Positions 17,373 through 33,846 of a stretch of 33,846 bases of DNA are shown here, piece by piece. How positions within the stretch are numbered: position 1 is the stretch's first letter; each line of letters starts with the position of its first letter. The notes beneath the pieces were generated by a model. That model was not told the origin of the DNA, made no database searches, and saw only the letters and a program-made list of their open reading frames with translations. The translations under genes and the position numbers were made by a program. The DNA is taken from assembly GCA_030167865.1 (NCBI GenBank), contig JALAGF010001980.1, positions 1 through 33,846 of the forward strand. Direction: 5' to 3'. This DNA comes from Craspedostauros australis. Its lineage: Eukaryota.

Positions 17373-18956
17373 ATGGGAGGCATCGATAGAAATCCGAACT
17401 CGGTGCTGCACCAAACAAGAACAATGGCCAAAGCAGCGACAATAGCAGCAGCAGTGGCAGCGACAGTGACAAACAACGATAATGGCGATGCCATGGTTGG
17501 CTGCTCCATGATACAACGAGGTGCTCACAAGTGTGCACATGGGTGTGGTGTGGGCTCACAACATTGCCATGTTCACAACGGCACCACAGATGTGAAAGCC
17601 ATCAATCAGATCAGCACCAGCACGGAACAGCTAATGAACTGCATTTCACCCAACAGTGCGACTACACGAACCAACACCATGGAAGCAGAGCACCTCGATC
17701 TTCAAACCCAGTCCTACGATGGTGACTGTGCCGCCGCAGTCTTTTCATCACAACACCCAGGCGCAAGCATCGCACTTCAAAAGCGCCCGCGTCGCAGCGC
17801 AATGAAGCAGCGAGGTCGCCGAATGCAAAAGAACCTAGCCGCAAGCCTGACCGTGGATGGTACCTCGCTTACGAGTTGTTGTATGGGTGCCGACACTGCT
17901 CGTCCAACTACTAGCACTAGTAGTAGCATGAGTAAGAGTGAAAGCCACAACGATAAACGTTCCGTCCGCCACGATGGTTGGAATCGGTGCGAAAATGATG
18001 ACAATGACGACGACGGTGACACCTCGATGCCACAAGGATTAGCATTGTCCTCTTCGCACTCCACATGCAACGGATCGTGCCTATCTTCAGCATCATCCTT
18101 CGACAGCATCACAACCGCGTCAACCATTTCGCATGACAGGCCATCCATCCATTTTGCAATCCAGGATGACGTGAAGGAGATCATCCCGGTTTCATCGATG
18201 GTGAAGCACCCCTCCCAGCTCTGGTTTCAGCCGGACGAGTATCTTCGCATCAAGCAGAAGATACGCAAGATCGTGAAGTCTTGCGGCATCGAGAGCACGC
18301 AACGGCAACAACACCAACAATCGAGAACGCAAGCAGATCAGCGATGCGATGCGGACACAGCGGAGCGTCTCGACTCCAACGATATTGGTACGCGCACAGG
18401 CGTCTCTCCCTCCTTCCAAGTCCACGCCCTCTCTCGACCACACCGCCACTCCCGCCAAGGTCAGCGATCACAGCCAAAGGCATTGTGCACGAGGGGATTG
18501 GAACCGTTCTTCAACGACACCTTCCGGCATCGGCAGACTTCGGTGGAGTCGGTGGTGTCGCTGTGCAAACGGATCGCCGCAAACGGCCAGCCGCAACACC
18601 ATCTTCCAAGCAACAACAACAACGGCAGCATCGACCGGACATGTGTCAACAGCGAGACCAACACTTCTGCGTCGACACAAACGATGATACTGGTTCCAAT
18701 AGACGTGACGCTGAACAACGACAGCAGAGATGACGATACGAAGGACGCGTGCGAACACATTGCGAGGATGTACTCCAAGATAGCCGCCAGCGATCGATAC
18801 GAGGCCATCCATCGTGCGTGTCAGGATGCACAGGATGTGCACACCTACACCCGCGACGTGCGCTGCCAACTAGCACGCAGGAACAGCAACGCTCGCACCA
18901 GCCTCGGCAGCAGCAGCCATTCCACAAGACACGGCCATGTTTATTTCCGAGGTTGA
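17373..18956 (+). CDS. Uncharacterised protein of a diatom-expanded family (F..LWF..EY..IK / C.RGLE / IA.MY..A..RA..DA pattern); start uncertain
   Basis: Long ORF with a Ser/Thr-rich N-terminus, then SIHFAIQDDVKEI...LWFQPDEYLRIKQKI, LCTRGLEPF and EHIARMYSKIAASDRYEAIHRACQDAQDV. I recognise this pattern from many diatom hypothetical proteins. Alternative in-frame ATGs lie at 17424, 17634 and 17679. Confidence 0.75.
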   Translation: MGGIDRNPNSVLHQTRTMAKAATIAAAVAATVTNNDNGDAMVGCSMIQRGAHKCAHGCGVGSQHCHVHNGTTDVKAINQISTSTEQLMNCISPNSATTRTNTMEAEHLDLQTQSYDGDCAAAVFSSQHPGASIALQKRPRRSAMKQRGRRMQKNLAASLTVDGTSLTSCCMGADTARPTTSTSSSMSKSESHNDKRSVRHDGWNRCENDDNDDDGDTSMPQGLALSSSHSTCNGSCLSSASSFDSITTASTISHDRPSIHFAIQDDVKEIIPVSSMVKHPSQLWFQPDEYLRIKQKIRKIVKSCGIESTQRQQHQQSRTQADQRCDADTAERLDSNDIGTRTGVSPSFQVHALSRPHRHSRQGQRSQPKALCTRGLEPFFNDTFRHRQTSVESVVSLCKRIAANGQPQHHLPSNNNNGSIDRTCVNSETNTSASTQTMILVPIDVTLNNDSRDDDTKDACEHIARMYSKIAASDRYEAIHRACQDAQDVHTYTRDVRCQLARRNSNARTSLGSSSHSTRHGHVYFRG

Positions 18957-20726: not shown

Positions 20727-21162
20727 GTGAGTGATGTTATGGGCGGTCTGACGGATAGCCTTCCAGCAATCGTGCCGCGGCAAGGGCGAAGGACGTTGGT
20801 CCGGACCCCTTCATTCGGCAACGTCAACATCTCCGACACCAGCGTCCGCGTTCAGGCTGGGCTGGAACAACATGCTGGGATCATTCCGTCAGCCTGCTCT
20901 CCGATGGTGGACGTTCACCATGGAGTTCAACATGGCATGGACCATGGCGGCGCTCGGTTGCGCCGGTCGCACAATCACACACCACACCCATGATCAATCC
21001 CATGGCCACTACCATGACCATGCAAACGTCGAGATCGTCGCTCGCACAAAATATGGGGTGCACCTTCGCATTGCGATCACTCACTCACTCAATCCATCAT
21101 TGCTTTACTCCGTTGCACTCCACTCCACCCCACTCCACAACAATTGACGACTTCACGCACAG
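20727..21162 (+). other. Candidate 5'-UTR intron of the HMG-box gene
   Basis: Consensus donor CAG|GTGAGT at 20727, branch-like TTGAC at 21144-21148, acceptor GCACAG ending at 21162, 14 nt before ATG 21177. Confidence 0.45.
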
Positions 21163-21176
21163 ACAACAAGAGAAAC

Positions 21177-23741
21177 ATGATGGCCCAGTCTACGTCACTG
21201 ATCGGCATGGGAACCAACACGAGCGCCAACGCAGCTCCGGGCGCAGCAAGCAACGGTGCTGCCATGCCGCGCAAGCCGATTGTCGGCACAAACGCTTCCC
21301 CCAACCTCACGAAGAACCACGAGAAGCTCGTCATCTCGCCCTCCACTTCTGTGCAGCAGCTCGGTGGCATGTCCGCAGCATTGATGGGTGAGCGCAGCAA
21401 CGGGGGCACTGCCAACAGCATTGCCAATAACAACAACATCGACAATGGCGTTGACAAGGGCAGCCTCGTCAACATGGCCATGCAAATGGGCATGGGAATG
21501 GGTGCTGGTATGAACATGAACACTATGAATGCCATGAACATGAACAACATGAGTGCAATGAACGCCATGAACACTATGAACATGAACATGAATAACATGG
21601 GCACAAACGCAACCACAAATCTGGGGATGAATGGTGCGAGCGGGTACCCAAACACCAAGCTGGGACTCCAGCTGGCCTCTTTGGCAGACAACAACGGCAA
21701 GTCATCCGGTATGGCCAAAGGCATGGGCATGCCAGTCAAGACCAAAGCCGATCCATCGGAGCCTTCCAAGTTGTTCAACCCCCAAGCGAAGAAGGGTGCT
21801 GGCGACGCTTACCCCGCGCCCATATCCGGCAGTGGAGGTGTCAACGGGAACGGGGCGCAGAAGCATCCGATTGACCTTGCCTCCAACGCGCTCTTCGCTC
21901 TCGGCAACCCGGGATCGACTACATCCGCAACAGTACCAGCAGTGGTGGGATCCGAACCTACAGCTGGCACGGGCAGCCTCAAGCTCAAGAAGGGTGCCAA
22001 CAAGCGCAACGGCAAGGCAGGTGGCAAGGCAAGTGGCAAGGCCCAATCGAAAACGAAGGCCTCGACTTTCGCCACGACCAAGCCGGTCAACCGATCGCGC
22101 AAGTCAAAATCGATTCCCTCCGACGTCCCACGCCGACCGCTTTCGGCCTACAACATATTCTTCTCGGAGCAGCGCGAGCTCATCCTTCGGGAGATCCTCG
22201 CGAAGGAACGCGGCGAGGAGTTCGATCTTTCCAAGCAGCCACCCACGGAGCAGCTCCTAAAGCCCCTCATGAAGACCACGCGCACCAAGCGCCCGCACAG
22301 GAAGGTGCACGGCAAGATCGGCCTCGTGCAGATGGCGAGGACGGTCGGCAAGCGCTGGGCGGCGTTGGGAGAGACGGAGCGCAAGAAGTACTACGGCCTG
22401 GCCGCCAAGGACAAGGAGCGTCAGGAGAAGGCCATGAGCGAGTACGAGGAGCGCAACAAGCGAGAGGCCGAGGCGCGCCATCGTCTGCAGCAGGAGGAGG
22501 CGCAACGCCAGAGACAGCAACACCACCAGCAGGACCAGTTCGCTCAACGCCTGCGGGAGCAGGCCATGACCATGGGGCTGGGGCCCTTCGCACAGTCGGC
22601 CGGGCCCTCCAATCTGCGCAACCTCACTGCATTCGAACAGCAGCAACAGCTTCAGCAGCAACAACTTCAACAGCAGCTGCAGAGGCTGCAGAACCAATCG
22701 GCAGCGGCGAACATGGGCCAAGGCATGGGCATCGGCATGCAGTCGTTTGGTGGTGCTGCTCCCTCCATGAATCTGCAACATTCCTTGAATTCCCAACTGC
22801 AACAACAGCAGCAGCAACAACAGCAGCATCACCAGCTGCAGCTGCAGCAGCAGCAACAACAGCACGATAACCAATCGCAGGAGCTCCTTGCCATGCTTCA
22901 GCAACAGCAACAGTATGCACAAAATCAGCCTCAACCCGACAATCATTTCGATCCCCACAACCCACAGCTGCAATCCAATACGCAGGCCAATCATCTCATG
23001 GGTGGGATCCAATCCATGCTGGGCCAGCAAGCGCTTGGCTTCCCCAACATGCCCAACGCACCCTCCGGCATCACGTCCGGTGACCTCCAAGGAATCCAGG
23101 CCGGTGCCATACGCGGGGACTTTGGCGGCAACATCAACATCAATATGAACATGAATATGGGCATGAATGTCAACATGAATGATGCCGCCGCCAACGGCAT
23201 GTCGAACAACGCCGCGCCCTCCCTTACGTCGCTCTTCAACGGTGGCTTCCCGGCAGCCAACCCCGCTCCTGGCTTGGCCAACGCCATGCCCAATCTTAAC
23301 CTGACGCAACTGAAAAACCAGAACGCGGCGTTGGCTGCCTTGGGCACGGGCGCGGCATCCACCGGAACATCCGACCTCCTCATGTCACAGTTTGGAGGCC
23401 AGTCCGCGGCATCTCCGTACAAGATGAACGACGCCAAGTCGACGGCCACTGGAGGAGGATCCACCTCCAACATCGCTTCCGTCAACATGACACCCAACCT
23501 CATGAACAGCATGAACGACGCCCTGGGCCTAGGATTGAACGGTGGCATGAATGACAACAACTTTGCCGCGGCGTTCCAACAGCAACAGCAGCAGAATCAG
23601 GGTCTGCTCGCCAACATTCAGGGACAAGGTATGGCCCAGAACGGTGCAGGCAACTCGCAGCAGAATGCCGGCAACTTTTCGTCGCTCATGGGCGGCGGCG
23701 CCGGCATGATCGGAGGCAATCCGTTCGGAGGCATCATCTAG
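21177..23741 (+). CDS. HMG-box DNA-binding protein / putative transcription factor (854 aa) with M/N- and Q-rich low-complexity arms
   Basis: HMG box at about 22128-22445: PRRPLSAYNIFFSEQRELIL...[insert]...KRPHRKVHGKIGLVQMARTVGKRWAALGETERKKYYGLAAKDKERQEKAMSEY. A basic NLS-like region lies upstream. TAG at 23739-23741. Confidence 0.9.
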   Translation: MMAQSTSLIGMGTNTSANAAPGAASNGAAMPRKPIVGTNASPNLTKNHEKLVISPSTSVQQLGGMSAALMGERSNGGTANSIANNNNIDNGVDKGSLVNMAMQMGMGMGAGMNMNTMNAMNMNNMSAMNAMNTMNMNMNNMGTNATTNLGMNGASGYPNTKLGLQLASLADNNGKSSGMAKGMGMPVKTKADPSEPSKLFNPQAKKGAGDAYPAPISGSGGVNGNGAQKHPIDLASNALFALGNPGSTTSATVPAVVGSEPTAGTGSLKLKKGANKRNGKAGGKASGKAQSKTKASTFATTKPVNRSRKSKSIPSDVPRRPLSAYNIFFSEQRELILREILAKERGEEFDLSKQPPTEQLLKPLMKTTRTKRPHRKVHGKIGLVQMARTVGKRWAALGETERKKYYGLAAKDKERQEKAMSEYEERNKREAEARHRLQQEEAQRQRQQHHQQDQFAQRLREQAMTMGLGPFAQSAGPSNLRNLTAFEQQQQLQQQQLQQQLQRLQNQSAAANMGQGMGIGMQSFGGAAPSMNLQHSLNSQLQQQQQQQQQHHQLQLQQQQQQHDNQSQELLAMLQQQQQYAQNQPQPDNHFDPHNPQLQSNTQANHLMGGIQSMLGQQALGFPNMPNAPSGITSGDLQGIQAGAIRGDFGGNININMNMNMGMNVNMNDAAANGMSNNAAPSLTSLFNGGFPAANPAPGLANAMPNLNLTQLKNQNAALAALGTGAASTGTSDLLMSQFGGQSAASPYKMNDAKSTATGGGSTSNIASVNMTPNLMNSMNDALGLGLNGGMNDNNFAAAFQQQQQQNQGLLANIQGQGMAQNGAGNSQQNAGNFSSLMGGGAGMIGGNPFGGII

Positions 23742-24614: not shown

Positions 24615-24688
24615 ATCCGCAAAGCACTTATCCGCAAAGCACCGATCAAATTGCCGATCAAATTTCCAATCAAATTGCCGATCAAACC
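24615..24688 (+). repeat. Adjacent short tandem repeats: ATCCGCAAAGCAC x2 (15-bp period) then CCGATCAAATTG-like x4 (12-bp period)
   Basis: Read directly, about 85-155 nt upstream of ATG 24771. Confidence 0.8.
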
Positions 24689-24770
24689 ACGCATCCATAT
24701 ATCCACACCACCTGCAGTCATACATAATCGAATACGCATACAGATAGTAAGCCAAGCTCATCCGCATATC

Positions 24771-25640
24771 ATGAGATTCATGCGCCTTTCTCTCCTTTCT
24801 GCGCTTGCCTTTGCAACGATGCACTTGCAGTGCGTTGCGTGGGTACCGTCTCCCTTGCCACGGAGGGCGGGCCACCTTCATCATCAATCGCAGTGCCAGC
24901 AGCAGCTGCAGCAATCAAACGTGCACGGTCACCCGCAACCTGACTCATCCGTTGTCGCTGCAGATGCGCCGTCGACCAAGGTTGCGACTGCCATTGCATC
25001 CGTCGTGACCTCCGCAACAAGCATTCTGCTCAGCCCACAAATTGCAACGGCGGCGACTGACTACGCGAACTACTATCAGAAATCGTACACGACGAGCTTG
25101 GAGCGGTCTGCGGGCAGTCCGTTGGAGATCTTCCTCTTCGGCGGGTTGGTCTACTTCCTCCTCAAGCTCAGCAAGAAGATGGAGGAACGAGATCGAGTTT
25201 TGACGAAGCCCAGCGAACCACCCCAGCCCATGGCATTGCCACCTTTGGCACCGCCACCGCAACCATTCGTCGCCAACATTCCAGCCAACGAGTACGATTA
25301 CGATTACGCACAGCAGCTGCAATCCGTGCCCGCAACCAGCGCCGCCACAGAACCTGCCCCGCCCGCCCCAATCCCAGTCTCTGCCCCAGTTCCAGCCCCC
25401 GTGCAACTCTCGGCTCCGACTCCTGTCAACTCCAGCTACTCTTACGAAGATGCCATGGCTGCCGCCGTTCCAACCGAACCAGCGTTGGCAACGCAAACGA
25501 CGGATGCTGCGGATTTCCCACAGACACAGTCGCCTGAGCCAGCCCCAGCAACAGAAACAGCACCAAATGGCGACATCAATGGGTCACCGAATGATTACAT
25601 GGCAGATTTCATCGCTGCATGCAAGGCGGGTAGCGAATAA
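24771..25640 (+). CDS. Uncharacterised, probably plastid (thylakoid)-targeted single-TM protein with Pro/Ala-rich tail (289 aa precursor)
   Basis: Signal peptide MRLSLLSALAFATMHLQCVA|WVP (ASAFAP-like, aromatic +1), a transit-like region, a second hydrophobic stretch ending ATA, TM LEIFLFGGLVYFLL followed by KLSKK, and a P/A-rich C-terminus. TAA at 25638-25640. Confidence 0.75.
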   Translation: MRFMRLSLLSALAFATMHLQCVAWVPSPLPRRAGHLHHQSQCQQQLQQSNVHGHPQPDSSVVAADAPSTKVATAIASVVTSATSILLSPQIATAATDYANYYQKSYTTSLERSAGSPLEIFLFGGLVYFLLKLSKKMEERDRVLTKPSEPPQPMALPPLAPPPQPFVANIPANEYDYDYAQQLQSVPATSAATEPAPPAPIPVSAPVPAPVQLSAPTPVNSSYSYEDAMAAAVPTEPALATQTTDAADFPQTQSPEPAPATETAPNGDINGSPNDYMADFIAACKAGSE

Positions 25641-27148
25641 TGTGCGCACTGCGCGAGCAGAGCATAGGAGCAAATTCGGCAGAGCATAATGCTATCCTCA
25701 ATGCTCAATGTCTCCAAGTCAGGCGCAGATAACCAATGCTTCGCACAACAAATCGAAGAGACAACGAGCACGCCTTTCCGTGGGGTGTCGACTCTGCGTC
25801 CAAACACAAGCATGATGCCATGGGAAGGCTTTTTATGGAACGATTGCACACACACACACATGAAGAAAGGTGTAAGTATGTTGCAAGTCGCAAAGGACTG
25901 GACGGGTGTACAGGGAGGATCCATCTGGAGCGTCATGCAAGTTGCGTCACTCTATTCCACACATTGCACGTATTGCGATTCTACTTCCACAGAATATGAT
26001 ATTATTTAATACATCTTATATACGAGCAGAAAACGAGTAGCACTCTGCGCGAGTATGAGTACTCTGCTCGATTCAAGTCCATCACATCCCTACACAGGCT
26101 CGTGTTTGTACTGTTGCAAAAATGTAGTGGCAGGTATTGTTCATACCGTGCAGTACTCCATCCCATTATATCATACTGTCAGTTGTGCGCGGGTGCATGC
26201 ATTGGTAGAAGCGGCGGTTCCCTTCGTTGCACCACTGCATCGATGCGAGTGTGGAGCCAAGCGATGAGACGAGGTTGCGTTCGGACCATAGGTATTTCAT
26301 GTTGATTCTAGCTTTCGGGACATCTATCTTACATATGTAGACTGCCAGGTTTCAACAGTCATATTGTTGTTGTATGCTTGTCTGCAAGAATCAGACGAAC
26401 AGAATTGTGGTTCCCAATTGAAACGTTCATTTCTTTGTCTGCGCACATGGCAGCCACGACGAGCATGGCAGAGAAACGGTGGAGAAGATCGCCTTAGCGT
26501 GCACCAAGGTTTGCCCCAGCGTTTCCACGCACATCCGAAACAGCCAGGAGCGCAAACAACCAACAAGAAAAACAGAGTTGACACCATTCTCCCCATCGAG
26601 AGACGAGGGGTTTGCATGTGGAAACAGGAAGGAGAGGCAACGAGCGAGGAGACGTCCTCTTCATCACAAATCAATCGAGGGAGGCGAATGACAAGAACAA
26701 GAACAACAACAACGACAAGACGAACAGAGCAGGTACGTTGAGCGAAGCACGGGCATGGTGCACAGCTCGCATCAGTGTGAGTTCGACCACGAGGAGAGCG
26801 AAGCGCGCCGAAACACAGACATCTCGTTCCATCTCGCGAACCACAACATAAAACGCCCTGCACCATCAAGGGCTCGACGCTTGCCGCATCTTGGCTTGGA
26901 TGCAAGTTCGCTGTGAGGGCACCATACCAATACTCACCAAATCACGGCTCCTATTATACTCATTCGTACAGACAGTGTGAAACAAACATACTCGTAGAGC
27001 AAGGCACATAGTCGTACTCTCCGAGCAACTCCAGGATAAACAAGTAGGATCACCAATTGATGGTGGGAGCAGGCTCATCCCCTTCCTCGGACTTGTAATA
27101 CGGATACTCAGCTCGTGCGTGCGGTCGATCTCATCCAGCAACCGAGCG

Positions 27149-30100
27149 ATGAAGGAGGAAACAGCCAATGGTGGTGCCAATGGGGGCGCCAACGGGGGTG
27201 CAGCGACCGAACAGGATGCCAAACAAGATGCCGATCAGCTCGTTGAACCGGCTTCTGAGTCAGCATCTGCGGATGATTCACCAATGACGCAGCCAACCGA
27301 TCTCAATGGCGGCACTGATGGCGTCGCGAACGATGCGAAGAGTCTGATGGATGGTGGGCAGGTCGTTGCATCGGTCAGCACGAATGCTCCTGCTGTGGAT
27401 GCCAGTCCCTTTGTTGGCAACGAAGGCACGAGCATCGATCAAGGCATGGACGAGCGTGCCACGAAAGGCGATGGTGACAGAGACAATGCTGATGCTGCGG
27501 TGGATGCTGCGGAGGGTGGAAGTGTGGTTGCATTGAAAACAAAACAAGCTCCTTCGGCTGCAGCCACGGCACACACAGAAACGCAAGACGCTGTGGCATC
27601 AAACGAAACGATGGCATCTACAGAGACCCAACCTGGAATACACGTACGGATGACTTCGTCGCAGCCTTTGTCCTTGATACCTTCGCCAATCAAGCCGGGC
27701 GAAGCGCAGGGCGACGCTACTGAACCTCCTCGAGACTCCAGCGACACCCAGGCAGACGAAGTTCATGCATCCACTGATACTGCAAAGCATCCGAATGACC
27801 ATGCCAGCAAGGCTGGTCTACAACCCACCAGCGGTAGGCAAGGTCAACACCAACAAGTACAACCGCAAGCGCAACCGCAACAACAAGCGCAACCACAACA
27901 AGCGCAACAGCAGCAGCAACCTACGGCATCACGGACGGAACCATCCCCTGCATCCGAGCAAACCTCGGTACCACCGCCAGGAAAAGCAGGGGAAGGAGCA
28001 TCGTCTTCACTTGATCAACCGGATCCAAAGCAACCAGCCGCGCCTCACGACCAACGCCCAGCCTACGCCCCGGACACAGCTGGCTTGCAATTATTGCCCG
28101 AAGGACAAGCAAATAGCCGAGAAGGTGGGACTCCAGTCGCTGGGACAGTTTCTGTCCCGTTGCACTCGAATCACATGTATGCACCTGCACGGCCCAAAGC
28201 ATATCCTGCCGCCGACGCTCACCCCCCTCCCTCGGTGCTGCCGCCTGGAAGGATGGACATGCGGCCAAGGGTCGGGCAAGTTCCCATGGCCGCCCTACCT
28301 GGGCACGCGCAGATTCATCCTGCGATGGGACCCTCGTATGGACCGGGAGTCGGGATGCCACCCGCATATGGCGCAACTCCATCTGCTTACCCACCGATGT
28401 ACCAGCCGAAGCCGACAGCCGCAGCCACAACAGTAGCAGCACCAGCAACAACAACGACGACAGCAACAGCAACAGCCAGAGGAGAGGCAGCGATAGCGGC
28501 CGCGGTGGCTGCAGCCGCAGCGGCGCCACCTCCCAAACGAAAACGCAAGGGTGGGCCAGGAGGCAACCAAGGCCAAAGTTTCAACAACATGTTGTTCGAA
28601 TTGCTCGTCTTTCGAGCCAAGCATGGACATTGCAAGGTCCCCAAGTACACGCAAAAGACCCTCAAGACCTTATCCAAATGGGTTACCCAACTGCGAGCGC
28701 ACTACGCGGAGCTTGTCGAGCGATCCTCGAAACTCAAATGGCCAACCAAACCACAGTCGAAGAGGAAACGCGCAGCGGCGCAAGCCCAATACTACGGTCT
28801 TCGCCAGTCTTCTTCCACCACGTCCGTTCCGAGACCTGCCGTTGGCGACGCAAGCGCTTGTGCCATCGCTACTCCAAACGAGAACATCAGTACGAGAACA
28901 ACCCCCGGGGCTGACGGCCGACCGAATTCCACAACAAATAGTGGCAACGTGCAGCCACAGGAACAACAGCAGCAGCAGCAGATGCAACAGCAACTAGGTC
29001 ATCAATACAATCAAGATTATGTGCAGCAGCAGCAGCAGCAGCAGCCATGTGGGCATTTTGCGGACCCATCAATGACGGATTCAGGGCCTGCGCAGGTGGC
29101 GCATGCGCCGAACCCCGTTCAGTATCACCAAGGCCATGCACAGCAAGGCGCTGGACAAGAGGGCAGGATGCCCAACGATGGGTCACAACGAGAGGCGACG
29201 ATGAACCCGTCTCATCCACCGTTCAGTGCTCCTGGTGATCAGCAAGCGTTTCACGGAAACTCAGCAGGATATGTGGTCAATACCACAAAGCAAGACGCTG
29301 GCAGCAAGTCACAGATGGAATCCGAGGAAGCCAAAGAACCAGAACGCCCGCCCATCCATCCAGCGCTACTTACATCTAACGCGGTTGCCAATCAACGAGG
29401 TGCCACCAACTACTTGCTCACTCCAGACAGACTCGCGGTGCTCAACAGCATAGAGTTTTGCTGGGACCGAGTCCCTTTCGACAGCCAGTCGCGGTGGAAC
29501 CTCAACTTTCAGGCCCTGCTGTCGTTCAAGCTCCAGCACGGGCACACGAATGTGCCACAGTCATCGGGCAAGCTCGGTTTGTGGGTGAAATCGCAGCGGG
29601 AGCAGTATCGAGAGTATGAGCTCCGAAAGACGGGCAAAGTGATGAACCATCGCAAACACACGTACCGTACAGTGTTGAGTCCAGAACGCATGGCCCAATT
29701 GAATTCGGTTGGATTTGAGTGGCGGATGGCACCTCGTGCCGTCGGTTGGAATGCGCGGTTCCAGGAGCTCGTCGAGTACTGTCGAGAGACTGGCACCACT
29801 AACGTCCCCGTGAATTACGCACCTAACCGGGCACTCGGGCGATGGGTAGGAAAGCAGAGGGCGCAGTACTCGCTGAAGCAGCGGGGTAGACCATCACAAC
29901 TCACGCAAGAGAGGATCAAGAAGCTTGAAGATGTTGGGTTCAGCTGGGGGAGCGGAGCAGCGGCTGCCATCGCTGCGGCTGTCGCGGAAGCACATGCTGC
30001 CCCTGTGCCCGAAGCAGTTGGTACAGCGCCAACCAATCAAGGCATGCAAGGCGAGATACGAGCGGCTCATCAACAACCGAGGAATCCCAACAAGAAGCAA

Positions 30101-31600
30101 AAAACCTCGATGGAAGCAGGAGGGATGCATGCGGAGACACAGGGTCCGGAGACACCAGCGATGGCACCAATGAAGGCACAGAACCCAGTCCACATCACTC
30201 TTCAACATCCTACACAGTTCGGACGTCCCATGCTGGATCATCGTGGTCATCCAATCGATGCTCAGCTCCAACACTCGCAGCAGCAGCAGCAGCAGCATCA
30301 GCCACATCAATATCAACAACCGCTGCATCCACATCAGCAACACCAACAACACCAAAGTCACCAGCAACATCATCGCGACCATCCCGCGGATGCTCAACTC
30401 CAGCACTCGCATCTGCCACATCACAACTTGCCACAGCAACCCCGACAGGCGCAGCCGCAGCAGATACAAGTGCAACGACACCCCGTTCATCACGGTATGC
30501 AAGGCCAGCCGCAAATGCAACACGGCCGTGTGCCACACCAGCATCCGCACCAATCTCACGCGTCGTTCCAACAACCGCATCAGTCACAGTACGCACGTCA
30601 CCATTTGACTGTCTCCACAATGCAGCACCATCAACAACAACATCAGCCAGTGCACCACAGCAACCATCAATCGCACTTGGGTGGGTCTGTCGCCATTGAC
30701 GATTCGCAGGCATCACAGCAGCCCCAACAACAACACCAACCGCCGAGCTTGCAGCAGGTGCAACACCATGGTCAGCAGCAGATACAGGCACTGCAACCGC
30801 AGCAGCAGCTACATCACGCAGAACCGCAGGGGCAGAGTCCCCAGCACATGGTTGTGATGGTGGGTGGGGGCATTCCGATGCCATCGCAAACTATCCAACC
30901 CGTGTATCATGAACAGGCAAACCAACCACAGCGGCTCCAGCAACACCCGCCCACGGAGGGGCAGCCAGGCCAGTATTATGGCGACGGCAGGATAATCGGA
31001 ACCAGCGCCACCCTGCCACAGCCACCACAACCAGAGGGACCGCAAAACACAGACTTTCGCGGTTTCGCGTACGTGGAGGCTGCTGGTGTGGGCGTGGGTG
31101 GAGGGCGCGGCGGTCAGGAGCATCTCGGTAATTTGCCGCGGTGGTCTTCAACTGCGCCTCCGCAAGAAGAGAATGCCACCCAACAGCACTCAGCAGAGCA
31201 TCCGCATACGCCACAGCAGCTACAGCATCAAGCTCAAGGCACGGCACAAGACCAGGGCGACCAACACAGTCGGCATGGGCAGCACCATGCTGCCTCGGTG
31301 CCAGCTGGGATATTACATCAAACCCAGCAGCAGCAGCCGCCATCTCCTCAAAAAGCCCCAGGCAATCACCACCAACCCAAGCAGCAACATCAGCAGCAGC
31401 AAGAGTGCGTGTCGATGCACCAAAACAACGAACACGAGCATGAGAATGAACATGGGCAAGCTCTAGATGGGGAAGGTGGCGGGGACGGAAGAAGCCAGGA
31501 CGCAAATGCTGAGGGAGAGTACGATGCGTCTGATTTGGAAGCAGACGAAAAATCGCAAGACAGTGCCAATCCAACCTTTGATACGTACGACATGGCATAG
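27149..31600 (+). CDS. Helicase-associated (HA) domain repeat protein (1483 aa): three HA domains in Q/H/P-rich disordered sequence, no helicase core
   Basis: HA2 (29495-29722): WNLNFQALLSFKLQHGHTNVP..LGLWVKSQREQY..LSPERMAQLNSVGFEW. HA3 (29747-29947): WNARFQELVEYCRETGTTNVP..LGRWVGKQRAQY..LTQERIKKLEDVGFSW. HA1 is split across 28580-29464. NLS-like PPPKRKRK. No DExD or Walker motifs seen. Confidence 0.9.
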   Translation: MKEETANGGANGGANGGAATEQDAKQDADQLVEPASESASADDSPMTQPTDLNGGTDGVANDAKSLMDGGQVVASVSTNAPAVDASPFVGNEGTSIDQGMDERATKGDGDRDNADAAVDAAEGGSVVALKTKQAPSAAATAHTETQDAVASNETMASTETQPGIHVRMTSSQPLSLIPSPIKPGEAQGDATEPPRDSSDTQADEVHASTDTAKHPNDHASKAGLQPTSGRQGQHQQVQPQAQPQQQAQPQQAQQQQQPTASRTEPSPASEQTSVPPPGKAGEGASSSLDQPDPKQPAAPHDQRPAYAPDTAGLQLLPEGQANSREGGTPVAGTVSVPLHSNHMYAPARPKAYPAADAHPPPSVLPPGRMDMRPRVGQVPMAALPGHAQIHPAMGPSYGPGVGMPPAYGATPSAYPPMYQPKPTAAATTVAAPATTTTTATATARGEAAIAAAVAAAAAAPPPKRKRKGGPGGNQGQSFNNMLFELLVFRAKHGHCKVPKYTQKTLKTLSKWVTQLRAHYAELVERSSKLKWPTKPQSKRKRAAAQAQYYGLRQSSSTTSVPRPAVGDASACAIATPNENISTRTTPGADGRPNSTTNSGNVQPQEQQQQQQMQQQLGHQYNQDYVQQQQQQQPCGHFADPSMTDSGPAQVAHAPNPVQYHQGHAQQGAGQEGRMPNDGSQREATMNPSHPPFSAPGDQQAFHGNSAGYVVNTTKQDAGSKSQMESEEAKEPERPPIHPALLTSNAVANQRGATNYLLTPDRLAVLNSIEFCWDRVPFDSQSRWNLNFQALLSFKLQHGHTNVPQSSGKLGLWVKSQREQYREYELRKTGKVMNHRKHTYRTVLSPERMAQLNSVGFEWRMAPRAVGWNARFQELVEYCRETGTTNVPVNYAPNRALGRWVGKQRAQYSLKQRGRPSQLTQERIKKLEDVGFSWGSGAAAAIAAAVAEAHAAPVPEAVGTAPTNQGMQGEIRAAHQQPRNPNKKQKTSMEAGGMHAETQGPETPAMAPMKAQNPVHITLQHPTQFGRPMLDHRGHPIDAQLQHSQQQQQQHQPHQYQQPLHPHQQHQQHQSHQQHHRDHPADAQLQHSHLPHHNLPQQPRQAQPQQIQVQRHPVHHGMQGQPQMQHGRVPHQHPHQSHASFQQPHQSQYARHHLTVSTMQHHQQQHQPVHHSNHQSHLGGSVAIDDSQASQQPQQQHQPPSLQQVQHHGQQQIQALQPQQQLHHAEPQGQSPQHMVVMVGGGIPMPSQTIQPVYHEQANQPQRLQQHPPTEGQPGQYYGDGRIIGTSATLPQPPQPEGPQNTDFRGFAYVEAAGVGVGGGRGGQEHLGNLPRWSSTAPPQEENATQQHSAEHPHTPQQLQHQAQGTAQDQGDQHSRHGQHHAASVPAGILHQTQQQQPPSPQKAPGNHHQPKQQHQQQQECVSMHQNNEHEHENEHGQALDGEGGGDGRSQDANAEGEYDASDLEADEKSQDSANPTFDTYDMA

Positions 31601-32328
31601 ATCATCACTGAAGGTGGGTACAGGTCAATCCTGTCAATCACTAGGTTGGAGGATGCACCGTGCCAAGGTAGAACATGGCATGTCGCACGCTTTGATCAAA
31701 GCACGTACCGGTAGGACAGAGTTTTGTACACACGGATTCGAGTACTCGTACAATGCGTCTTTACCTTTCCGCGCAGAAGCCACGTTTGCCGTCGCCGCTC
31801 CTCGCTACTGGCAGCCAAGAGGCTCTATGATAAAATCGATGAAAAAGCGCCACTCGACAATACAAAAGGTTGGTCGACTCGCTGACTCGGGTCATCCCGA
31901 ACAAACACATCAACACACACATTTCAATAACACACGCAGAACGCACATCAATACGCAAAGAGAGTGAGAGAGAGAGACAGACAGAGACAGAGTCCACGCT
32001 CAGAGGCGCACACCGAATGTCCAAGGGTACAAGAAAACCCGAGGTCGTTTGTGGGTGATGATGTTCCCAACTGCCCTCCCACCAAAACCTGAGCGACCCT
32101 TCAATCCGTATTAGGACTACTGGACACTCACCAATTCAGCTTGCATTTGGACGAGTGTCTGCAAAGCACCGCTTCAAAACTCATTTACAAATAAATCTGA
32201 ACGTGGAGATGCAACTTCATTCTGCCCACAAAGTAGGCACACACCGAAACAAACATCCAACGAGACCACAAATCAAGCAACCAAACTTGCAACCAAACTG
32301 CCAGCCAGCCACCACCAATACTCGTGCC

Positions 32329-33846
32329 ATGCGTTGTGCTCTCCTCCTCGGTGGACCAACAAGGGGAAAGATGAGGATGTCATCAATGGCGTCACTATCA
32401 GCCCTCGCGATGCCCGCGATGGGATTCATCGCCCCACGCCGATGCTTGCCACTGTCCTCGGCCTCCAGATACATCTCTTCGATGCCTTTCGCACCAGCCT
32501 CATCCTTGCCATTGGTGTCCACTTCGCCACTTCAACACCAACCACAACGATGGTGGTCTGATTCTCGTCTGTTTTCAGATATTACAAACGACGAGGATGC
32601 AGCAGCAGCGGCGCCACCTGCGATCCCACTCGACATCGACAACTACAAGGACCTCTTCAGCGACGCCAGCTTCTGGGACCCCGAGTTGGAGGATGCAGCA
32701 GTCATGGAACTGCTCGATGAGAGAGTGTTGGGACAAGGACAGTCTGCAGGTGAACTGTGGAAACCGTTAATCGATGTACGAACAGATATCGTTGCGGCCG
32801 TCAAAGAAGATGACGAGTTCACTTTTTATGGTCTCGAAACCGACGCGAGAAGTTGGGACAAAGCAACGGATGCAGACAGGCCAATCCTCCAATGGATCGC
32901 CACCAGATATAAAGGCGGCAAAGACCAAGCGCAGGATGTCGTTGACAAGATCCACGATTGGTTGGACGATGCTGAACAAACACTCGACGACTTCATCCAG
33001 AGGAGACTCACCAGACTGTCGCATAGAGAAGTTGAGAGGCTCTCACATGGCGCAGGCAAGACATTCTATGTTGGTACCGTCAACTTCCGACACCAAGGAT
33101 GGTCTTTGAGACGTCCGCGAAAGGTCGTTCTGGACGCGTCGAATTCACAGAAGAAAGGTAACGCCCTATTGGTCTACTCCTCGGAAAGTGGCAGTGGTAA
33201 GACAGTTGAGCTCGCCGGAAGCGCGTTTTTGCGAGGTTGCGCCATCAGCATGGTTGGCTCCGTTTCAAAAGAGGACAACTTACCCAAGACACTGACAGAG
33301 GAAGAACGAAGAGCACAGTGCATTGAAACACTCAAGAAGCGTTTCGACGCACTCGCAGAATACAATAAAGAAGCCTTCGAGACCATTCTCCAGGCAATCA
33401 ACGACTGGGTGGAACCAAACGACAATCCTACGGCAGATGTCAGGATCGTCTTCTGCATCGATGAAACTTCTTCCTGCCTCAACTTGGTGCAGACGATCAT
33501 CAACGAAAAGGATCTGCTTTACAAAACCATGGGGGATTACATCGCCAGTGGATTTGGCGGCGTGCTGGACGAGAAGTTCAAAACGGACCGACCCATCCGT
33601 GTTGTGTTCTCTATCGCCAGCACAGGGGCGTATGGGGGCACAGTTGGAGCCCAAATTGGCAACTACAAGTGCCTCAAGCCCAGCGGCAACACGGTCACCA
33701 AGGAGCTGTACGATACACTCAAATCCGAGTACGACACGAGCGGTGATGGATACGAGAACATCGCGACATTCGAAGATCTGAAGACGCGGCCATTCCTGGG
33801 AATCATCGCCCAGGGCAATGCACGGATGGCTTCCATCTTGATCGAT
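32329..33846 (+). CDS. Partial (3'-truncated by window) divergent P-loop NTPase with N-terminal organelle-targeting-like presequence, at least 506 aa
   Basis: Manual translation from ATG 32329 is stop-free to the window end; it is missing from the ORF track, presumably because it has no stop. It reads MRCALLLGGPTRGKMRMSSMASLSALAMPAMGFIAPRR...SRLFSDITNDED..., then Walker A-like LLVYSSESGSGKT (SESGSGKT at 33181-33204), Walker B IVFCIDE (33445-33465), RVVFSIASTG and QGNARMA. Confidence 0.85.
   Translation, partial: MRCALLLGGPTRGKMRMSSMASLSALAMPAMGFIAPRRCLPLSSASRYISSMPFAPASSLPLVSTSPLQHQPQRWWSDSRLFSDITNDEDAAAAAPPAIPLDIDNYKDLFSDASFWDPELEDAAVMELLDERVLGQGQSAGELWKPLIDVRTDIVAAVKEDDEFTFYGLETDARSWDKATDADRPILQWIATRYKGGKDQAQDVVDKIHDWLDDAEQTLDDFIQRRLTRLSHREVERLSHGAGKTFYVGTVNFRHQGWSLRRPRKVVLDASNSQKKGNALLVYSSESGSGKTVELAGSAFLRGCAISMVGSVSKEDNLPKTLTEEERRAQCIETLKKRFDALAEYNKEAFETILQAINDWVEPNDNPTADVRIVFCIDETSSCLNLVQTIINEKDLLYKTMGDYIASGFGGVLDEKFKTDRPIRVVFSIASTGAYGGTVGAQIGNYKCLKPSGNTVTKELYDTLKSEYDTSGDGYENIATFEDLKTRPFLGIIAQGNARMASILID

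What the first reader, a model, noticed from the sequence alone, without database searches (positions are those of the whole stretch)
32329..33846. Hidden ORF: divergent P-loop NTPase resembling Crinkler/RHS-type (CR) NTPases, behind an organelle-targeting presequence
Seen: a stop-free 506-codon frame missed by the ORF track. It has a hydrophobic strand plus SESGSGKT (Ser replaces the first Gly/Ala of Walker A), hhhhDE Walker B (IVFCIDE), a sensor-like strand ending ASTG, and GNARMA in the place of the GxP/GxxR helix motif of STAND-like NTPases. The first ~83 aa are almost acid-free and S/A/R/P-rich, with AMG|FIAP (ASAFAP-like) and RLFS before an abrupt acidic mature region. Established: CR (Crinkler/RHS) proteins pair STAND-related NTPases with a C-terminal restriction-endonuclease-fold domain and are linked to conflict systems and mobile elements. 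Inference: this may be a plastid- or mitochondrion-imported NTPase(-nuclease), i.e. an organellar conflict or nucleic-acid-processing protein that I do not know to be characterised in diatoms. The C-terminus lies outside the window, so any nuclease domain is unseen.
Basis: partly seen in the sequence, partly recalled or inferred. Interest (0 to 1): 0.72.

Follow-up and report, generated by a model that had tools for sequence, protein, structure and literature searches.

The report
Diatom-type AAA+ ATPase–nuclease gene fragment
The open frame is the front half of a real gene from an unnamed family of marine-protist proteins that join an ORC/STAND-like ATPase to a probable DNA-cutting domain, and this copy carries an N-terminal leader that may send it into the plastid or mitochondrion.

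Summary

It is a real gene. A full-library search found 48 relatives, none with a Pfam family. The closest, P0002, is 40% identical up to the window's last codon and then continues for 547 residues.

An AlphaFold model of P0002 (pLDDT 78, pTM 0.81) matches ORC/Cdc6, CED-4/NLR, archaeal Walker ATPases and TnsC/MuB. So the ATPase is of the AAA+ ORC/STAND kind and matches no housekeeping family.

Full-length relatives end in a conserved domain with an alpha-beta-beta-beta-alpha-beta order and near-invariant D...QxKD. It aligns in register with Mrr-type nucleases, weakly but above 184 of 184 shuffled controls.

The architecture matches the 'NTPase + HTH + REase' module of Crinkler-type effectors. 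Neither a Crinkler header nor an LFLAK motif was found, and family membership could not be tested.

The leader is acid-free and holds AMG|FIAP. Three relatives have strong signal peptides followed by F, while 16 of 40 have NLS-like starts. Organelle targeting of this copy is plausible but unproven, because no transcript data were available.

The parts
32329..33846 (+). Stop-free coding frame (506 codons, 3'-open). It is the N-terminal ~55% of an AAA+ ATPase-nuclease family protein.
   Evidence: It is 40% identical to P0002 over residues 174-506. 48 relatives were found.
32155..32328 (+). Upstream continuation of the open frame (58 codons), holding an in-frame ATG at 32209-32211. It may be 5' UTR or an alternative start.
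   Evidence: The codon-usage score was uninformative.
32329..32577 (+). N-terminal leader, residues 1-83: S/A/R/P/L-rich, one acidic residue (D78), net positive. Candidate plastid or mitochondrial targeting peptide.
   Evidence: composition; 1.1% of composition-matched simulations were both open and acid-poor. Only P0014 shares a first acidic residue as late as position 78.
32425..32436 (+). FIAP (residues 33-36), preceded by A-M-G. Candidate signal-peptidase site with F at +1 (ASAFAP-like).
   Evidence: P0014 has the same FIAP after a strong hydrophobic core. The motif definition comes from PMC4329603.
32488..32505 (+). Second F-A-P motif (FAPASS, residues 54-59). The 20 residues from F54 give the highest ASAFind-matrix transit-peptide score of all F sites examined.
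   Evidence: tp 5.72, against a maximum of 5.47 among 1089 internal F sites.
32566..32577 (+). RLFS at the end of the leader, just before the acidic region. It also overlaps a pyrimidine-rich ...TTTTCAG| that could act as a 3' splice acceptor.
32578..33057 (+). Acidic, mostly helical N-terminal domain (residues 84-243), conserved only with the nearest relatives P0002 and P0003.
   Evidence: P0003 aligns from query residue 86. (helices, low confidence). (helices in P0002 residues 1-110, pLDDT ~50-60).
33058..33099 (+). Beta-hairpin with the family signature F-R-H-x-G (KTFYVGTVNFRHQG, residues 244-257), ahead of the ATPase core.
   Evidence: consensus FRHxG. (strands E120-124 and E128-134 in P0002).
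33181..33204 (+). Walker A / P-loop SESGSGKT (residues 285-292).
   Evidence: The Lys is kept in 44 of 47 aligned relatives. In the model the motif follows strand E164-169.
33445..33465 (+). Walker B strand IVFCIDE (residues 373-379).
   Evidence: D is kept in 46 of 46 and E in 42 of 46 relatives. It is strand E249-256 in the model.
33601..33627 (+). Sensor-1-like strand VVFSIASTG (residues 425-433).
   Evidence: T is kept in 42 of 44 relatives. It is strand E299-308 in the model.
33811..33834 (+). QGNARMAS (residues 495-502): conserved Arg at the start of the helical lid, a candidate sensor-2 arginine. The window ends 4 codons later.
   Evidence: R is kept in 36 of 38 relatives. It sits at the junction of helices 365-373 and 375-388 in the model. 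The sensor-2 reading is inference.

Best explanation
The frame is the 5' part of a real nuclear gene of a marine protist, probably a diatom or another alga with a red-type complex plastid. It encodes a member of an unnamed family with this architecture:
- a variable N-terminal address leader
- a helical N-domain
- an FRHxG beta-hairpin
- an AAA+ ATPase of the ORC/Cdc6-STAND kind, with Walker A SxSGSGKT, Walker B hhhhDE, a sensor-1 Thr and a lid Arg in NxRMAS
- a helical lid and a winged-helix-like region
- a C-terminal Mrr-like PD-(D/E)xK-type nuclease domain with D...QxKD

The window stops at the first lid helix, so the last ~550 residues, nuclease included, are seen only in relatives.

Proposed mechanism (inferred). 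ATP binding and hydrolysis by the AAA+ module switches or assembles the protein on nucleic acid, or on a trigger, and so licenses the C-terminal nuclease. This is what has been proposed for the NTPase+HTH+REase modules of Crinkler-type effectors, and it is how STAND-nuclease immune proteins work.

Most family members appear to be addressed to the nucleus. This copy carries an acid-free, positively charged 83-residue leader with AMG|FIAP. That leader most likely sends it to an organelle, the plastid somewhat more likely than the mitochondrion, where it would act on organellar DNA.

Shown: the ORF, the family, the ATPase fold class and the motif conservation. Inferred: nuclease activity, coupling of the ATPase to the nuclease, and the localisation of this copy.
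For: Real gene and family:
- P0002 (930 aa) matches query residues 143-506 at E 8.8e-60, and BLASTP gives 40% identity over 335 columns.
- 48 proteins match at E<=1e-3, 19 at <=1e-10 and 3 at <=1e-30.
- Full-length conservation among members is seen in all-against-all BLAST.

ATPase class:
- The AlphaFold2 model of P0002, built with the 49-row alignment, has pLDDT 78.3 and pTM 0.81.
- Foldseek against the PDB gives 20 matches at E<=1e-3. They are led by yeast Orc5 (5.9e-5), Drosophila Orc1, CED-4, archaeal Orc1/Orc2 and NLRC4, with TnsC a little further down.
- Motif conservation: Walker A Lys 44 of 47, Walker B Asp 46 of 46 and Glu 42 of 46, sensor-1 Thr 42 of 44, lid Arg 36 of 38.

C-terminal domain in relatives:
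- In an 18-sequence alignment, S, D-G, D, G, R and V are invariant and Q-x-K nearly so.
- Over all rows that reach the domain, D is kept in 25 of 27, Q in 22 of 26 and K in 25 of 27.
- The model's secondary-structure order is helix 749-756, strands 758-760, 775-778, 788-798 and 803-816, helices 826-845, then strand 848-855. The conserved D sits at the start of one strand and QxK at the end of the next.
- hhalign against a 24-sequence Mrr_cat alignment pairs ADG with DGGID and QAKD with QAKR. The score is 23.8 and P is 0.0035. 0 of 184 column-shuffled controls reached it (mean 11.1, SD 2.3, max 22.4).

Leader:
- One acidic residue in 83. Being both open and acid-poor occurred in 1.1% of composition-matched simulations.
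- F33 follows A-M-G, and the next 20 residues hold 5 S/T, 3 K/R and 0 D/E.
- P0014, P0009 and P0010 have strong hydrophobic cores (Kyte-Doolittle 9-residue maxima 2.92, 3.21 and 3.21) followed by LHA|FIAP, VDA|F and ANA|F. Their ASAFind-matrix cleavage scores are 7.08-7.39, a level reached by 20 of 1089 internal F sites.
- The criteria for such leaders come from PMC4329603 (passages; Table S2).
Against: - The nuclease domain of this gene is outside the window.
- In relatives the nuclease fold rests on motifs, predicted secondary structure and a weak profile-profile match (hhalign probability 9.3%). Pfam Mrr_cat was not hit by any of 18 domain sequences even at E<=10, nor was any PDB sequence. 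The fold searches tested only model residues 115-564.
- The leader's hydrophobic core is weak: Kyte-Doolittle maximum 1.83, against 2.9-3.2 in the clear cases. SignalP, ASAFind as a whole, HECTAR and MitoFates could not be run.
- The ASAFind matrix alone does not discriminate, since nearly every F scores above its cut-off of 2.
- An in-frame ATG at 32209 would add 40 hydrophilic residues in front.
- The nearest relative with a complete-looking start (P0003) begins at the acidic region, equivalent to about residue 75, with no leader.
- The codon-usage score of the leader is no better in frame than out of frame.
- No sensor domain such as TPR, LRR or WD40 was found, so what would trigger the switch is unknown.
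Confidence: 0.55

Rival explanations
1. The same ATPase-nuclease protein, but the 83-residue 'presequence' is not a targeting peptide. Either the true N-terminus is different (an upstream exon spliced onto the acceptor ...TTTTCAG| at 32577/32578) or translation starts at the ATG at 32209. The protein then stays nuclear or cytosolic, like most of its family.
For: - 16 of 40 family proteins with a complete N-terminal region carry a K[KR]x[KR] cluster in their first 45 residues.
- P0003 starts at the acidic region.
- A pyrimidine tract plus CAG ends exactly where the acidic region starts.
- One frame-compatible upstream mini-exon would read MIKSMKKRHSTIQKV, which is NLS-like as in relatives, with a GT at 31873.
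- The leader's codon-usage score is uninformative and its signal-peptide core is weak.
Against: - The leader is open and in phase with the gene for 83 codons, plus 58 more upstream.
- Only 1.1% of composition-matched simulations are both open and acid-poor.
- The region 31600-32570 has only one GT[AG][AC]G site, at 31964 inside a GA repeat, and it is not among the frame-compatible exon ends listed. The candidate donor GTCGAC is unlike the one intron seen in the window, which is GTGAGT...CAG.
- 46 GT dinucleotides make some frame-compatible combinations likely by chance.
- Relatives in other clades do carry clear signal-peptide-plus-F leaders.
Confidence: 0.3
2. The gene belongs to, or was recently domesticated from, a mobile element. 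In that case the AAA+ ATPase and the endonuclease serve transposition or selfish spread, as in Tn7 TnsC/TnsA, MuB, or the mobile 'CR-effector-like' NTPase-REase elements, rather than a host function.
For: - The family is large and diverse, with 48 clusters at the 50% identity level, and its N-termini look swapped between clades.
- The literature derives CR NTPase-REase modules from prokaryotic mobile elements (PMC5289972 passages; PMC11342252 passages).
Against: - The window has no second copy.
- No terminal or inverted repeats or other transposon-like features are present in 29000-33846.
- The neighbours are ordinary nuclear genes: an SMC-type ATPase, an HMG-box protein and an HA-domain protein.
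- No transposase or integrase family was found in any of the 30 proteins scanned with Pfam.
- The 3' flank is unseen, so this test is incomplete.
Confidence: 0.12
3. An ordinary housekeeping AAA+ protein, such as a replication initiator or clamp-loader-like factor (ORC/Cdc6, RFC) or a protease or chaperone ATPase, that is merely too divergent for family models.
For: The top Foldseek matches are ORC subunits and archaeal Orc1/Cdc6. RFC, FtsH and Vps4 also appear.
Against: - No Pfam, NCBIfam or PDB sequence match at or near any curated threshold for the window protein. None either for 29 relatives or for the family profile.
- The window ORF has no second copy in the window, but the family has dozens of divergent paralogue clusters with differing N-termini.
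- The C-terminal D...QxKD domain is foreign to those housekeeping families.
- The family-specific FRHxG hairpin has no counterpart named by any search.
Confidence: 0.05
4. The ATPase assignment is right, but the conserved C-terminal domain of the family is not a nuclease. It could be a binding or regulatory module, which would make the family an ATP-driven switch or scaffold of unknown output.
For: - No sequence match to any nuclease family or solved structure.
- The hhalign probability is only 9.3%, and the best shuffled control reached 22.4 against the observed 23.8.
- The domain was never folded or searched on its own.
Against: - The near-invariant polar residues (D, Q, K, D, R, S) are the kind kept in active sites.
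- Their placement on consecutive predicted strands matches the PD-(D/E)xK core order.
- The one profile tested aligned the two motifs in register without being told to.
Confidence: 0.25

Closest known systems
C-terminal 'NTPase + HTH + REase' toxin modules of Crinkler/RHS-type (CR) effectors. These come from Zhang et al. 2016, known here only through PMC5289972, PMC11064341 and PMC11342252.
   Same: The domain order is the same: a P-loop NTPase, then a helical/winged-helix region, then a restriction-endonuclease-like domain. It sits behind a variable N-terminal addressing part. Many members are nucleus-directed. The proposed logic is that the NTPase regulates the nuclease (for the literature; for this family).
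   Different: - No Crinkler Ubl header in the 30 proteins scanned with Pfam.
- No LFLAK-like motif in 0 of 52 proteins.
- The N-termini are NLS-like or plastid-type leaders, not host-translocation headers.
- The owners appear to be free-living algae, not pathogens.
- Sequence membership in any of the numbered CR-NTPase or CR-REase families could not be tested.
STAND / NLR-type NTPases (CED-4, Apaf-1, NLRC4, plant NRCs) and bacterial antiviral STANDs (Avs) that carry nuclease effectors.
   Different: - No NACHT, NB-ARC or nSTAND Pfam match and no PADLOC match in 10 of 10 proteins.
- No repeat sensor domain.
- The nuclease is C-terminal.
- A conserved lid Arg (NxRMAS) stands where STANDs have GxP. 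This points towards the ORC/Cdc6 side of the clade, which is an inference.
Archaeal Walker-type AAA+ ATPases with a C-terminal winged helix (PDB 2qen PABY2304, 2fna SSO1545) and Orc1/Cdc6 initiators.
   Different: There is no detectable sequence similarity. Those proteins lack the FRHxG hairpin, the long helical insert after Walker A and any nuclease domain.
Mrr-type (Mrr_cat, PF04471) PD-(D/E)xK restriction endonucleases.
   Same: The motif pair D-G...Q-A-K sits on consecutive strands and is followed by a helix and a hydrophobic strand. The profile-profile alignment is in register.
   Different: HMMER finds no match in 18 of 18 domain sequences. The similarity is only at the motif and profile level. 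The conserved FGxxR and GNS motifs of this family have no named counterpart.

Membership tests
AAA+ / ORC-Cdc6-STAND class of P-loop NTPases | Walker A GxxxxGK[ST] after a hydrophobic strand | tested here: met
   SESGSGKT follows LLVY. Lys is kept in 44 of 47 and Thr/Ser in 47 of 47 relatives. The first position is S/T/Q rather than G/A across the family.
AAA+ / ORC-Cdc6-STAND class of P-loop NTPases | Walker B hhhhDE | tested here: met
   IVFCIDE. D is kept in 46 of 46 and E in 42 of 46 relatives.
AAA+ / ORC-Cdc6-STAND class of P-loop NTPases | Fold: alpha/beta ATPase core plus helical lid (plus winged helix) | tested here: met
AAA+ / ORC-Cdc6-STAND class of P-loop NTPases | Sensor 1 polar residue at the end of the strand after Walker B; sensor 2 Arg in the lid | tested here: inconclusive
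   Conserved T (42 of 44) and R (36 of 38) sit at the expected places in the model's secondary structure. No coordinates were available to check their contact with nucleotide.
STAND proper (NACHT / NB-ARC / nSTAND) | Match to a STAND family model | tested here: not met
   No such Pfam hit for P0001, P0002 or 28 other relatives. Only a language-model resemblance to clusters partly carrying AAA_16, AAA_22 or NACHT, with score 0.89-0.93, which is a lead only.
STAND proper (NACHT / NB-ARC / nSTAND) | C-terminal repeat sensor (LRR, WD40, TPR) | tested here: not met
   No repeat family appeared in the 29 relatives scanned. The model shows a compact alpha/beta C-terminal domain instead.
Crinkler/RHS-type (CR) effectors | N-terminal Crinkler (Ubl) header or RHS part, with an LxLFLAK-type motif | tested here: not met
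   No Crinkler or RHS Pfam hit in 30 proteins. No L.LFLA[KR]-like string in the first 150 residues of 0 of 52 proteins. The sensitivity of these tests to divergent headers is unknown.
Crinkler/RHS-type (CR) effectors | C-terminal module NTPase + HTH + REase | tested here: inconclusive
   The NTPase is shown. The helical/winged-helix region is matched by structure over model residues up to ~560-580. The REase is inferred from motifs and a weak profile match. All of this was seen in relatives; the window holds only the NTPase part.
Crinkler/RHS-type (CR) effectors | Sequence/profile membership in one of the defined CR-NTPase and CR-REase families | not testable with these tools
   The defining paper is not held. 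There is no Pfam model and no reference sequence from a tool.
Mrr-like PD-(D/E)xK nucleases (PF04471) | Match to the family model | tested here: not met
   0 of 18 C-terminal domain sequences hit PF04471 at E<=10.
Mrr-like PD-(D/E)xK nucleases (PF04471) | Catalytic D ... (D/E/Q)xK on consecutive strands of an alpha-beta-beta-beta-alpha-beta core | tested here: inconclusive
   D is kept in 25 of 27, Q in 22 of 26 and K in 25 of 27. The strand order comes from the model. hhalign pairs the motifs in register, P 0.0035, and 0 of 184 shuffles reach the score. The domain was not folded alone and not tested by fold search (note). It is absent from the window itself.
Bipartite plastid leader of algae with red-type complex plastids (ASAFAP type) | ER-type signal peptide | tested here: inconclusive
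   The best 9-residue hydropathy is 1.83 (LAMPAMGFI), against 2.92-3.21 in P0014, P0009 and P0010. SignalP was not available.
Bipartite plastid leader of algae with red-type complex plastids (ASAFAP type) | F (or W/Y/L) at +1 of the cleavage site, with small residues at -1 and -3 | tested here: met
   A-M-G|F-I-A-P. The rule is from PMC4329603. Hand-summing the matrix gives roughly 5.6 (cleavage-site score) and 4.6 (transit-peptide score) for this site. A script did not compute these two values.
Bipartite plastid leader of algae with red-type complex plastids (ASAFAP type) | Transit-peptide-like region: hydroxylated, few acidic residues, net positive | tested here: met
   Residues 33-77 have no D/E. 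The 20 residues after F33 hold 5 S/T and 3 K/R. The stretch from F54 has the highest matrix score of all F sites.
Mitochondrial presequence | Acid-free, Arg-rich amphipathic N-terminus with an R-2/R-3 cleavage motif | tested here: inconclusive
   9 K/R and 1 acidic residue in 83. The maximum 11-residue hydrophobic moment is 0.56, at 42-52. RY|I and RLF|S fit R-2/R-3 patterns recalled from memory. No predictor was available.

The most novel reading that the evidence does not exclude
Algae with complex plastids own a previously undescribed family of ATP-switched nucleases, architecturally like Crinkler-type toxin modules and STAND-nuclease immune proteins. Its address label has been changed at least three separate times from the nucleus to the plastid route. 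The window's gene is one such re-addressed copy, placing a conflict-type ATPase-nuclease inside an organelle. There it would police or degrade organellar DNA, for example as defence against invading DNA, control of organelle genome copy number or inheritance, or programmed organelle-DNA destruction.
Probability: 0.2. Interest if true: 0.8.

Novelty: new variant of a known kind. Interest (0 to 1): 0.55.

Why it matters
ATPase-plus-nuclease modules are a recurring design of immune and selfish-element proteins, including bacterial Avs and McrBC-like systems, Crinkler effectors and Medea-like elements. A sizeable family of this design in marine algae has no match in Pfam, NCBIfam, PADLOC or PHROGs and no detectable solved relative. 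Members appear to be addressed either to the nucleus or to the plastid route.

That would give a concrete handle on two open questions. The first is what innate-immunity or genome-surveillance machinery diatoms and their kin possess. The second is whether organelle genomes in these algae are guarded or culled by dedicated nucleases. The predictions are directly testable by localisation, ATPase and nuclease assays, and knock-outs in model diatoms.

If the leader turns out not to be translated, the finding reduces to a new, unannotated member of a known architectural class.

Tried and rejected
- Whole-genome look-up: no genome is held for the window.
- Single-sequence fold of the window protein: unusable, pLDDT 39.5.
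- Word-indexed search at similar lengths: nothing. The profile search added only unnamed proteins from jgi, ena, mmetsp and lgn sources.
- Cluster names and sources: the query could not be made.
- DNA around relatives: the alignments were too diverse for the tool. Scans of metagenome contigs with P0001 and with P0002 confirmed no relative. The missing 3' end could therefore not be recovered, and no relative's genomic context was seen.
- Sequencing runs: none was listed and no RNA holder was listed.
- Earlier findings of this scan: nothing by sequence or by genome.
- Family profile against PDB sequences: 0 hits. The C-terminal domain profile gave only chance-level ribosomal proteins, E 0.75-1.1.
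- Pfam on 18 C-terminal domains: nothing relevant.
- PADLOC and PHROGs on 10 members: 0 hits each.
- tblastn of P0002 against plasmids and phages: no match.
- Family profile against 201 genomes of one bacterial phylum (that of handle G001): 0 matches. The tool itself calls this uninformative without a positive control.
- Foldseek against viral models: only generic AAA+ proteins.
- Codon-usage log-odds for the leader: frame 0 scored 2.9 and frame 2 scored 5.9, which is uninformative.
- ASAFind matrix used without SignalP: it does not discriminate, since nearly all F sites exceed the cut-off.
- Homodimer prediction of the ATPase-lid region (residues 115-600 of P0002, two copies): no verdict, score 0.00, own fold uncertain.
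- The careful maximum-likelihood tree did not finish, so only the quick tree is reported.
- A first shuffle control timed out and was rerun.
- Zhang et al. 2016 is not held, so CR family definitions are second-hand.
- Literature searches: 'Crinkler + diatom + NTPase' and 'STAND NTPase + diatom + nuclease' each returned 0 papers.
- Rejected readings: housekeeping ORC/Cdc6 or RFC (no sequence support, wrong architecture), and a chance open frame (homology from residue ~86 onward).


Full report
**Observation.**
- Translating window 32329-33846 on the + strand gives 506 residues without a stop.
- With open ends allowed, the frame is listed as 32155..33846 and runs off the 3' end. Open-ended frames are left out of a default ORF listing, which explains the 'hidden' status.
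- The first 83 residues hold one acidic residue (D78), 9 K/R and 18 S/T.
- In 20,000 first-order Markov simulations of this 249-nt stretch, 1.1% were both open and had at most one acidic residue. The leader is unusual, but its pyrimidine-rich composition explains part of that.

**A real gene of an unnamed family.**
- Pfam, NCBIfam and PDB sequences gave nothing at or near any threshold for the window protein.
- The exhaustive search of 1.84 billion representatives found 48 proteins at E<=1e-3, 19 at <=1e-10 and 3 at <=1e-30.
- The best, P0002 (930 aa, N-terminally incomplete), is 40% identical over 335 columns. Query residues 174-506 align to P0002 residues 69-383. The alignment ends exactly at the window's last codon, and P0002 continues for 547 more residues.
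- None of 29 relatives scanned has a significant Pfam family. Ten members have no PADLOC or PHROGs match. The family profile hits no PDB sequence.
- The sources named are metagenome and transcriptome collections (jgi, ena, lgn, mmetsp), without protein names.
- All-against-all BLAST shows that members are alike over their whole length, not only in the ATPase.

**The ATPase.**
- The alignment of 49 sequences (A1) has the consensus F-R-H-x-G ... YSxSGSGKTVELAGS ... LxLVxAIDEASxCPxLVRxII ... VxFSVAGTG ... NxRMAS.
- Conservation: Walker A Lys 44 of 47, Walker B Asp 46 of 46 and Glu 42 of 46, sensor-1-like Thr 42 of 44, and the Arg of NxRMAS 36 of 38.
- An AlphaFold2 model of P0002 built with A1 has mean pLDDT 78.3 and pTM 0.81. 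The motifs sit where an AAA+ fold needs them: the P-loop after strand 164-169, Walker B on strand 249-256, the Thr at the end of strand 299-308, and the Arg at the first lid helices 365-388.
- Foldseek against the PDB gave 20 matches at E<=1e-3. They are led by yeast Orc5 (5.9e-5), Drosophila Orc1, CED-4, archaeal Orc1/Orc2 and NLRC4, with Tn7 TnsC just behind.
- The matches that extend furthest cover the ATPase, the lid and a winged-helix-like part up to about residue 560-580.
- I conclude that the domain is an AAA+ ATPase of the ORC/Cdc6-STAND neighbourhood.
- The conserved Arg in NxRMAS recalls the sensor-2 arginine of Orc1/Cdc6-type proteins. That is my inference from position and recall, not a test.

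**What lies beyond the window.**
- In full-length relatives a helical region follows, and then a conserved C-terminal domain of about 160-190 residues.
- In an 18-sequence alignment of that domain (A2), S, D-G, D, G, R and V are invariant and Q-x-K is nearly so. The signature is GNSxxADGxVTF ... hhhxQ[AS]KDY ... FGxxRLLCVAS.
- Over all rows of A1 that reach the domain, D is kept in 25 of 27, Q in 22 of 26 and K in 25 of 27.
- The model places these on the order helix-strand-strand-strand-strand-helix-strand. The conserved D sits at the start of strand 788-798 and QxK at the end of strand 803-816. This is the arrangement of the PD-(D/E)xK core, and the Q-for-D/E variant is the one I recall from Mrr.
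- I tested the Mrr idea directly.
  - I collected Mrr_cat (PF04471) domains from unnamed bacterial genomes and named Mrr loci.
  - I aligned 24 of them: 19 of the 30 loci L083-L112, dropping 11 that were near-duplicates, short or interrupted, plus 5 of the 80 E. coli-type loci.
  - I ran hhalign against A2. The only alignment reported pairs ADG with DGGID and QAKD with QAKR, with score 23.8, P 0.0035 and probability 9.3%.
  - None of 184 column-shuffled Mrr profiles reached that score (mean 11.1, SD 2.3, max 22.4).
- Against this, HMMER finds no Mrr_cat hit in any of the 18 domain sequences even at E<=10. The domain profile finds no solved structure.
- A nuclease is therefore the best reading (about 0.65 by my estimate), but it is not shown, and for the window's own gene it is unseen.

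**The leader.**
- PMC4329603 states the rules for plastid proteins of diatoms and other algae with red-type complex plastids. They carry an ER signal peptide followed by a transit peptide. The transit peptide usually begins with F at +1 (the 'ASAFAP' motif), is rich in hydroxylated residues, is poor in acidic ones and is net positive (passages).
- The window protein meets part of this. F33 follows A-M-G, and the next 20 residues hold 5 S/T, 3 K/R and no D/E. There is no acidic residue before position 78.
- With the ASAFind matrix (Table S2), the stretch from a second motif (MP|FAPASS, F54) has the highest transit-peptide score of all F sites examined: 5.72, against a maximum of 5.47 among 1089 internal F sites.
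- The matrix alone does not discriminate, because nearly every F exceeds the tool's cut-off of 2. The decisive first step, SignalP, was not available.
- The hydrophobic core before F33 is weak, with a best 9-residue hydropathy of 1.83.
- The strongest support is comparative.
  - P0014 reads ...SKLLLYGLLLIISSSTLHA|FIAP..., with the same FIAP, and its first acidic residue is also at position 78.
  - P0009 and P0010 read ...VGLCAVLIIAACGQLRS[VD/AN]A|FN...
  - Their hydropathy maxima are 2.92 and 3.21, and their matrix cleavage scores are 7.08-7.39. Only 20 of 1089 internal F sites reach that level.
- By contrast, 16 of 40 members with a complete N-terminal region carry a K[KR]x[KR] cluster in their first 45 residues, for example PAKRAKKEE and NKKRKKAED. 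This suggests nuclear import.
- I built a quick maximum-likelihood tree of the ATPase region from 42 of 49 rows, dropping the 7 with fewer than 200 residues there. The careful search did not finish.
  - The four leader-bearing proteins fall in three places: P0001 with P0002/3/4 (support 97), P0009 with P0010 (support 100), and P0014 inside a clade of NLS-type proteins (support 99).
  - The label therefore needs three changes on the tree.
  - The family seems to swap its address label, and the plastid route has been taken more than once.
- For the window's copy, a mitochondrial presequence is a fair alternative. It is Arg-rich and acid-free, and it has RY|I and RLF|S patterns that I recall as R-2/R-3 sites. 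The maximum hydrophobic moment is 0.56.
- My estimates: plastid route about 0.3-0.4, mitochondrion about 0.2, not a targeting peptide about 0.3-0.4.

**Doubts about the gene start.**
- No run holding this DNA was listed, so no transcript evidence exists here.
- The nearest relative with an apparent start (P0003) begins at the acidic region.
- The leader ends in TCTCGTCTGTTTTCAG|, which looks like a splice acceptor.
- The one intron I could infer in the window splits the SMC-type gene and uses GTGAGT...CAG.
- Between 31600 and 32570 there is only one GT[AG][AC]G site, at 31964 inside a GA repeat, and it is not among the frame-compatible exon ends listed.
- Frame-compatible weak donors do exist. 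One would give an upstream mini-exon MIKSMKKRHSTIQKV, which is NLS-like. With 46 GT dinucleotides available, some such combination is expected by chance.
- Codon usage does not settle the matter.

**Context.**
- The window looks like ordinary nuclear DNA of a eukaryote. It holds an SMC-type ATPase gene split by an intron (5847-7106 and 7379-9933), an HMG-box protein (21144-23741) and a Q-rich protein with three HA domains (27119-31600).
- The window has no second copy of the family, and there are no transposon-like repeats in 29000-33846.

**Mechanism.**
- Shown: an intact AAA+ ATPase catalytic set in the window protein, and a conserved downstream architecture in relatives.
- Inferred: ATP-dependent switching or assembly that licenses a C-terminal Mrr-like nuclease acting on DNA. 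For most members this would be in the nucleus, and for this copy in an organelle.
- A homodimer prediction of the ATPase-lid region gave no verdict and counts for nothing.
- No sensor domain was found, so the trigger is unknown.

**Comparison with what is known.**
- The closest described architecture is the 'NTPase + HTH + REase' module. According to Zhang et al. 2016, as reported in PMC5289972 (passages) and PMC11064341 (passages), it forms the majority of Phytophthora Crinkler C-termini, with the NTPase thought to regulate the nuclease. PMC11342252 (passages) mentions numbered CR-NTPase and CR-REase families and mobile 'CR-effector-like' elements.
- This family works like that module on paper, but I do not file it as a CR effector.
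  - No Crinkler or RHS header was detected in 30 proteins.
  - No LFLAK-like motif was found in 52 proteins.
  - Profile membership could not be tested, because the defining paper and its alignments are not held.
- It also resembles STAND-nuclease immune proteins in logic, but it lacks their family signatures and sensor repeats.
- Language-model look-alikes of both the ATPase and the C-terminal domain were unnamed fungal clusters, mostly Mucoromycota and Basidiomycota, with scores of 0.93-0.94. These are leads only.

**Novelty and verdict.**
- Full-text searches for Crinkler + diatom + NTPase and for STAND NTPase + diatom + nuclease returned no paper. These searches cover only the held library.
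- I rate the finding a new variant of a known kind. It is a real, unannotated ATPase-(probable) nuclease family in marine algae, with interchangeable nuclear and plastid-type leaders.
- The organellar address of this particular copy, and the nuclease activity, remain to be shown.
- Interest: 0.55.

Noticed in passing
P0003 and P0004 (nearest clade to the window protein): Both have Walker A Lys replaced by Arg (GNGSGRT) and Walker B DE replaced by DD (CLDDA / CIDDA). This suggests a catalytically dead sub-branch right next to the window's intact copy.
   Followed up: partly
window 5847-7106 and 7379-9933 (+): An SMC-type ATPase gene (AAA_23/SMC_N at the N-terminal part, SMC_N at the C-terminal part) is split by one intron of ~270 nt. 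The intron has GTGAGT...CAG ends and contains a (CAAA)n microsatellite at about 7288-7318.
   Followed up: partly
window 27119-31600 (+): A 1493-codon open frame encodes a Q/H/P-rich low-complexity protein with three 'helicase associated' (HA, PF03457) domains (E 3.7e-46). CAG-type repeats run through it.
   Followed up: no
window 21144-23741 (+): An HMG-box protein is embedded in long N/M/Q/G-rich low-complexity tracts, with NMNMNM-type runs.
   Followed up: no
window 31955-31995: A GA/GACA-type microsatellite (gagagtgagagagagagacagacagagacagag) lies ~340 nt upstream of the ORF's ATG, in the intergenic region after the HA-domain gene's stop at 31600.
   Followed up: no
window 16111: This is the single N in the window.
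   Followed up: no
P0016 residues ~617-666: One family member has a SAM-domain-like insert (SAM_2 E 8.8e-4, just under the Pfam cut-off). It lies between the conserved D and QxK strands of the C-terminal domain.
   Followed up: no
P0009 and P0010: These two members have ~400 extra residues between the signal-peptide-plus-F leader and the FRHxG hairpin. The stretch is G/S/P/H-rich and no family was assigned to it.
   Followed up: no
window 10264-11832, 17337-18956, 24651-25640, 3935-4903 (+): These long open frames have no Pfam family at E<=1e-3. 24651-25640 and 3935-4903 begin with hydrophobic, signal-peptide-like stretches after internal Met residues.
   Followed up: no
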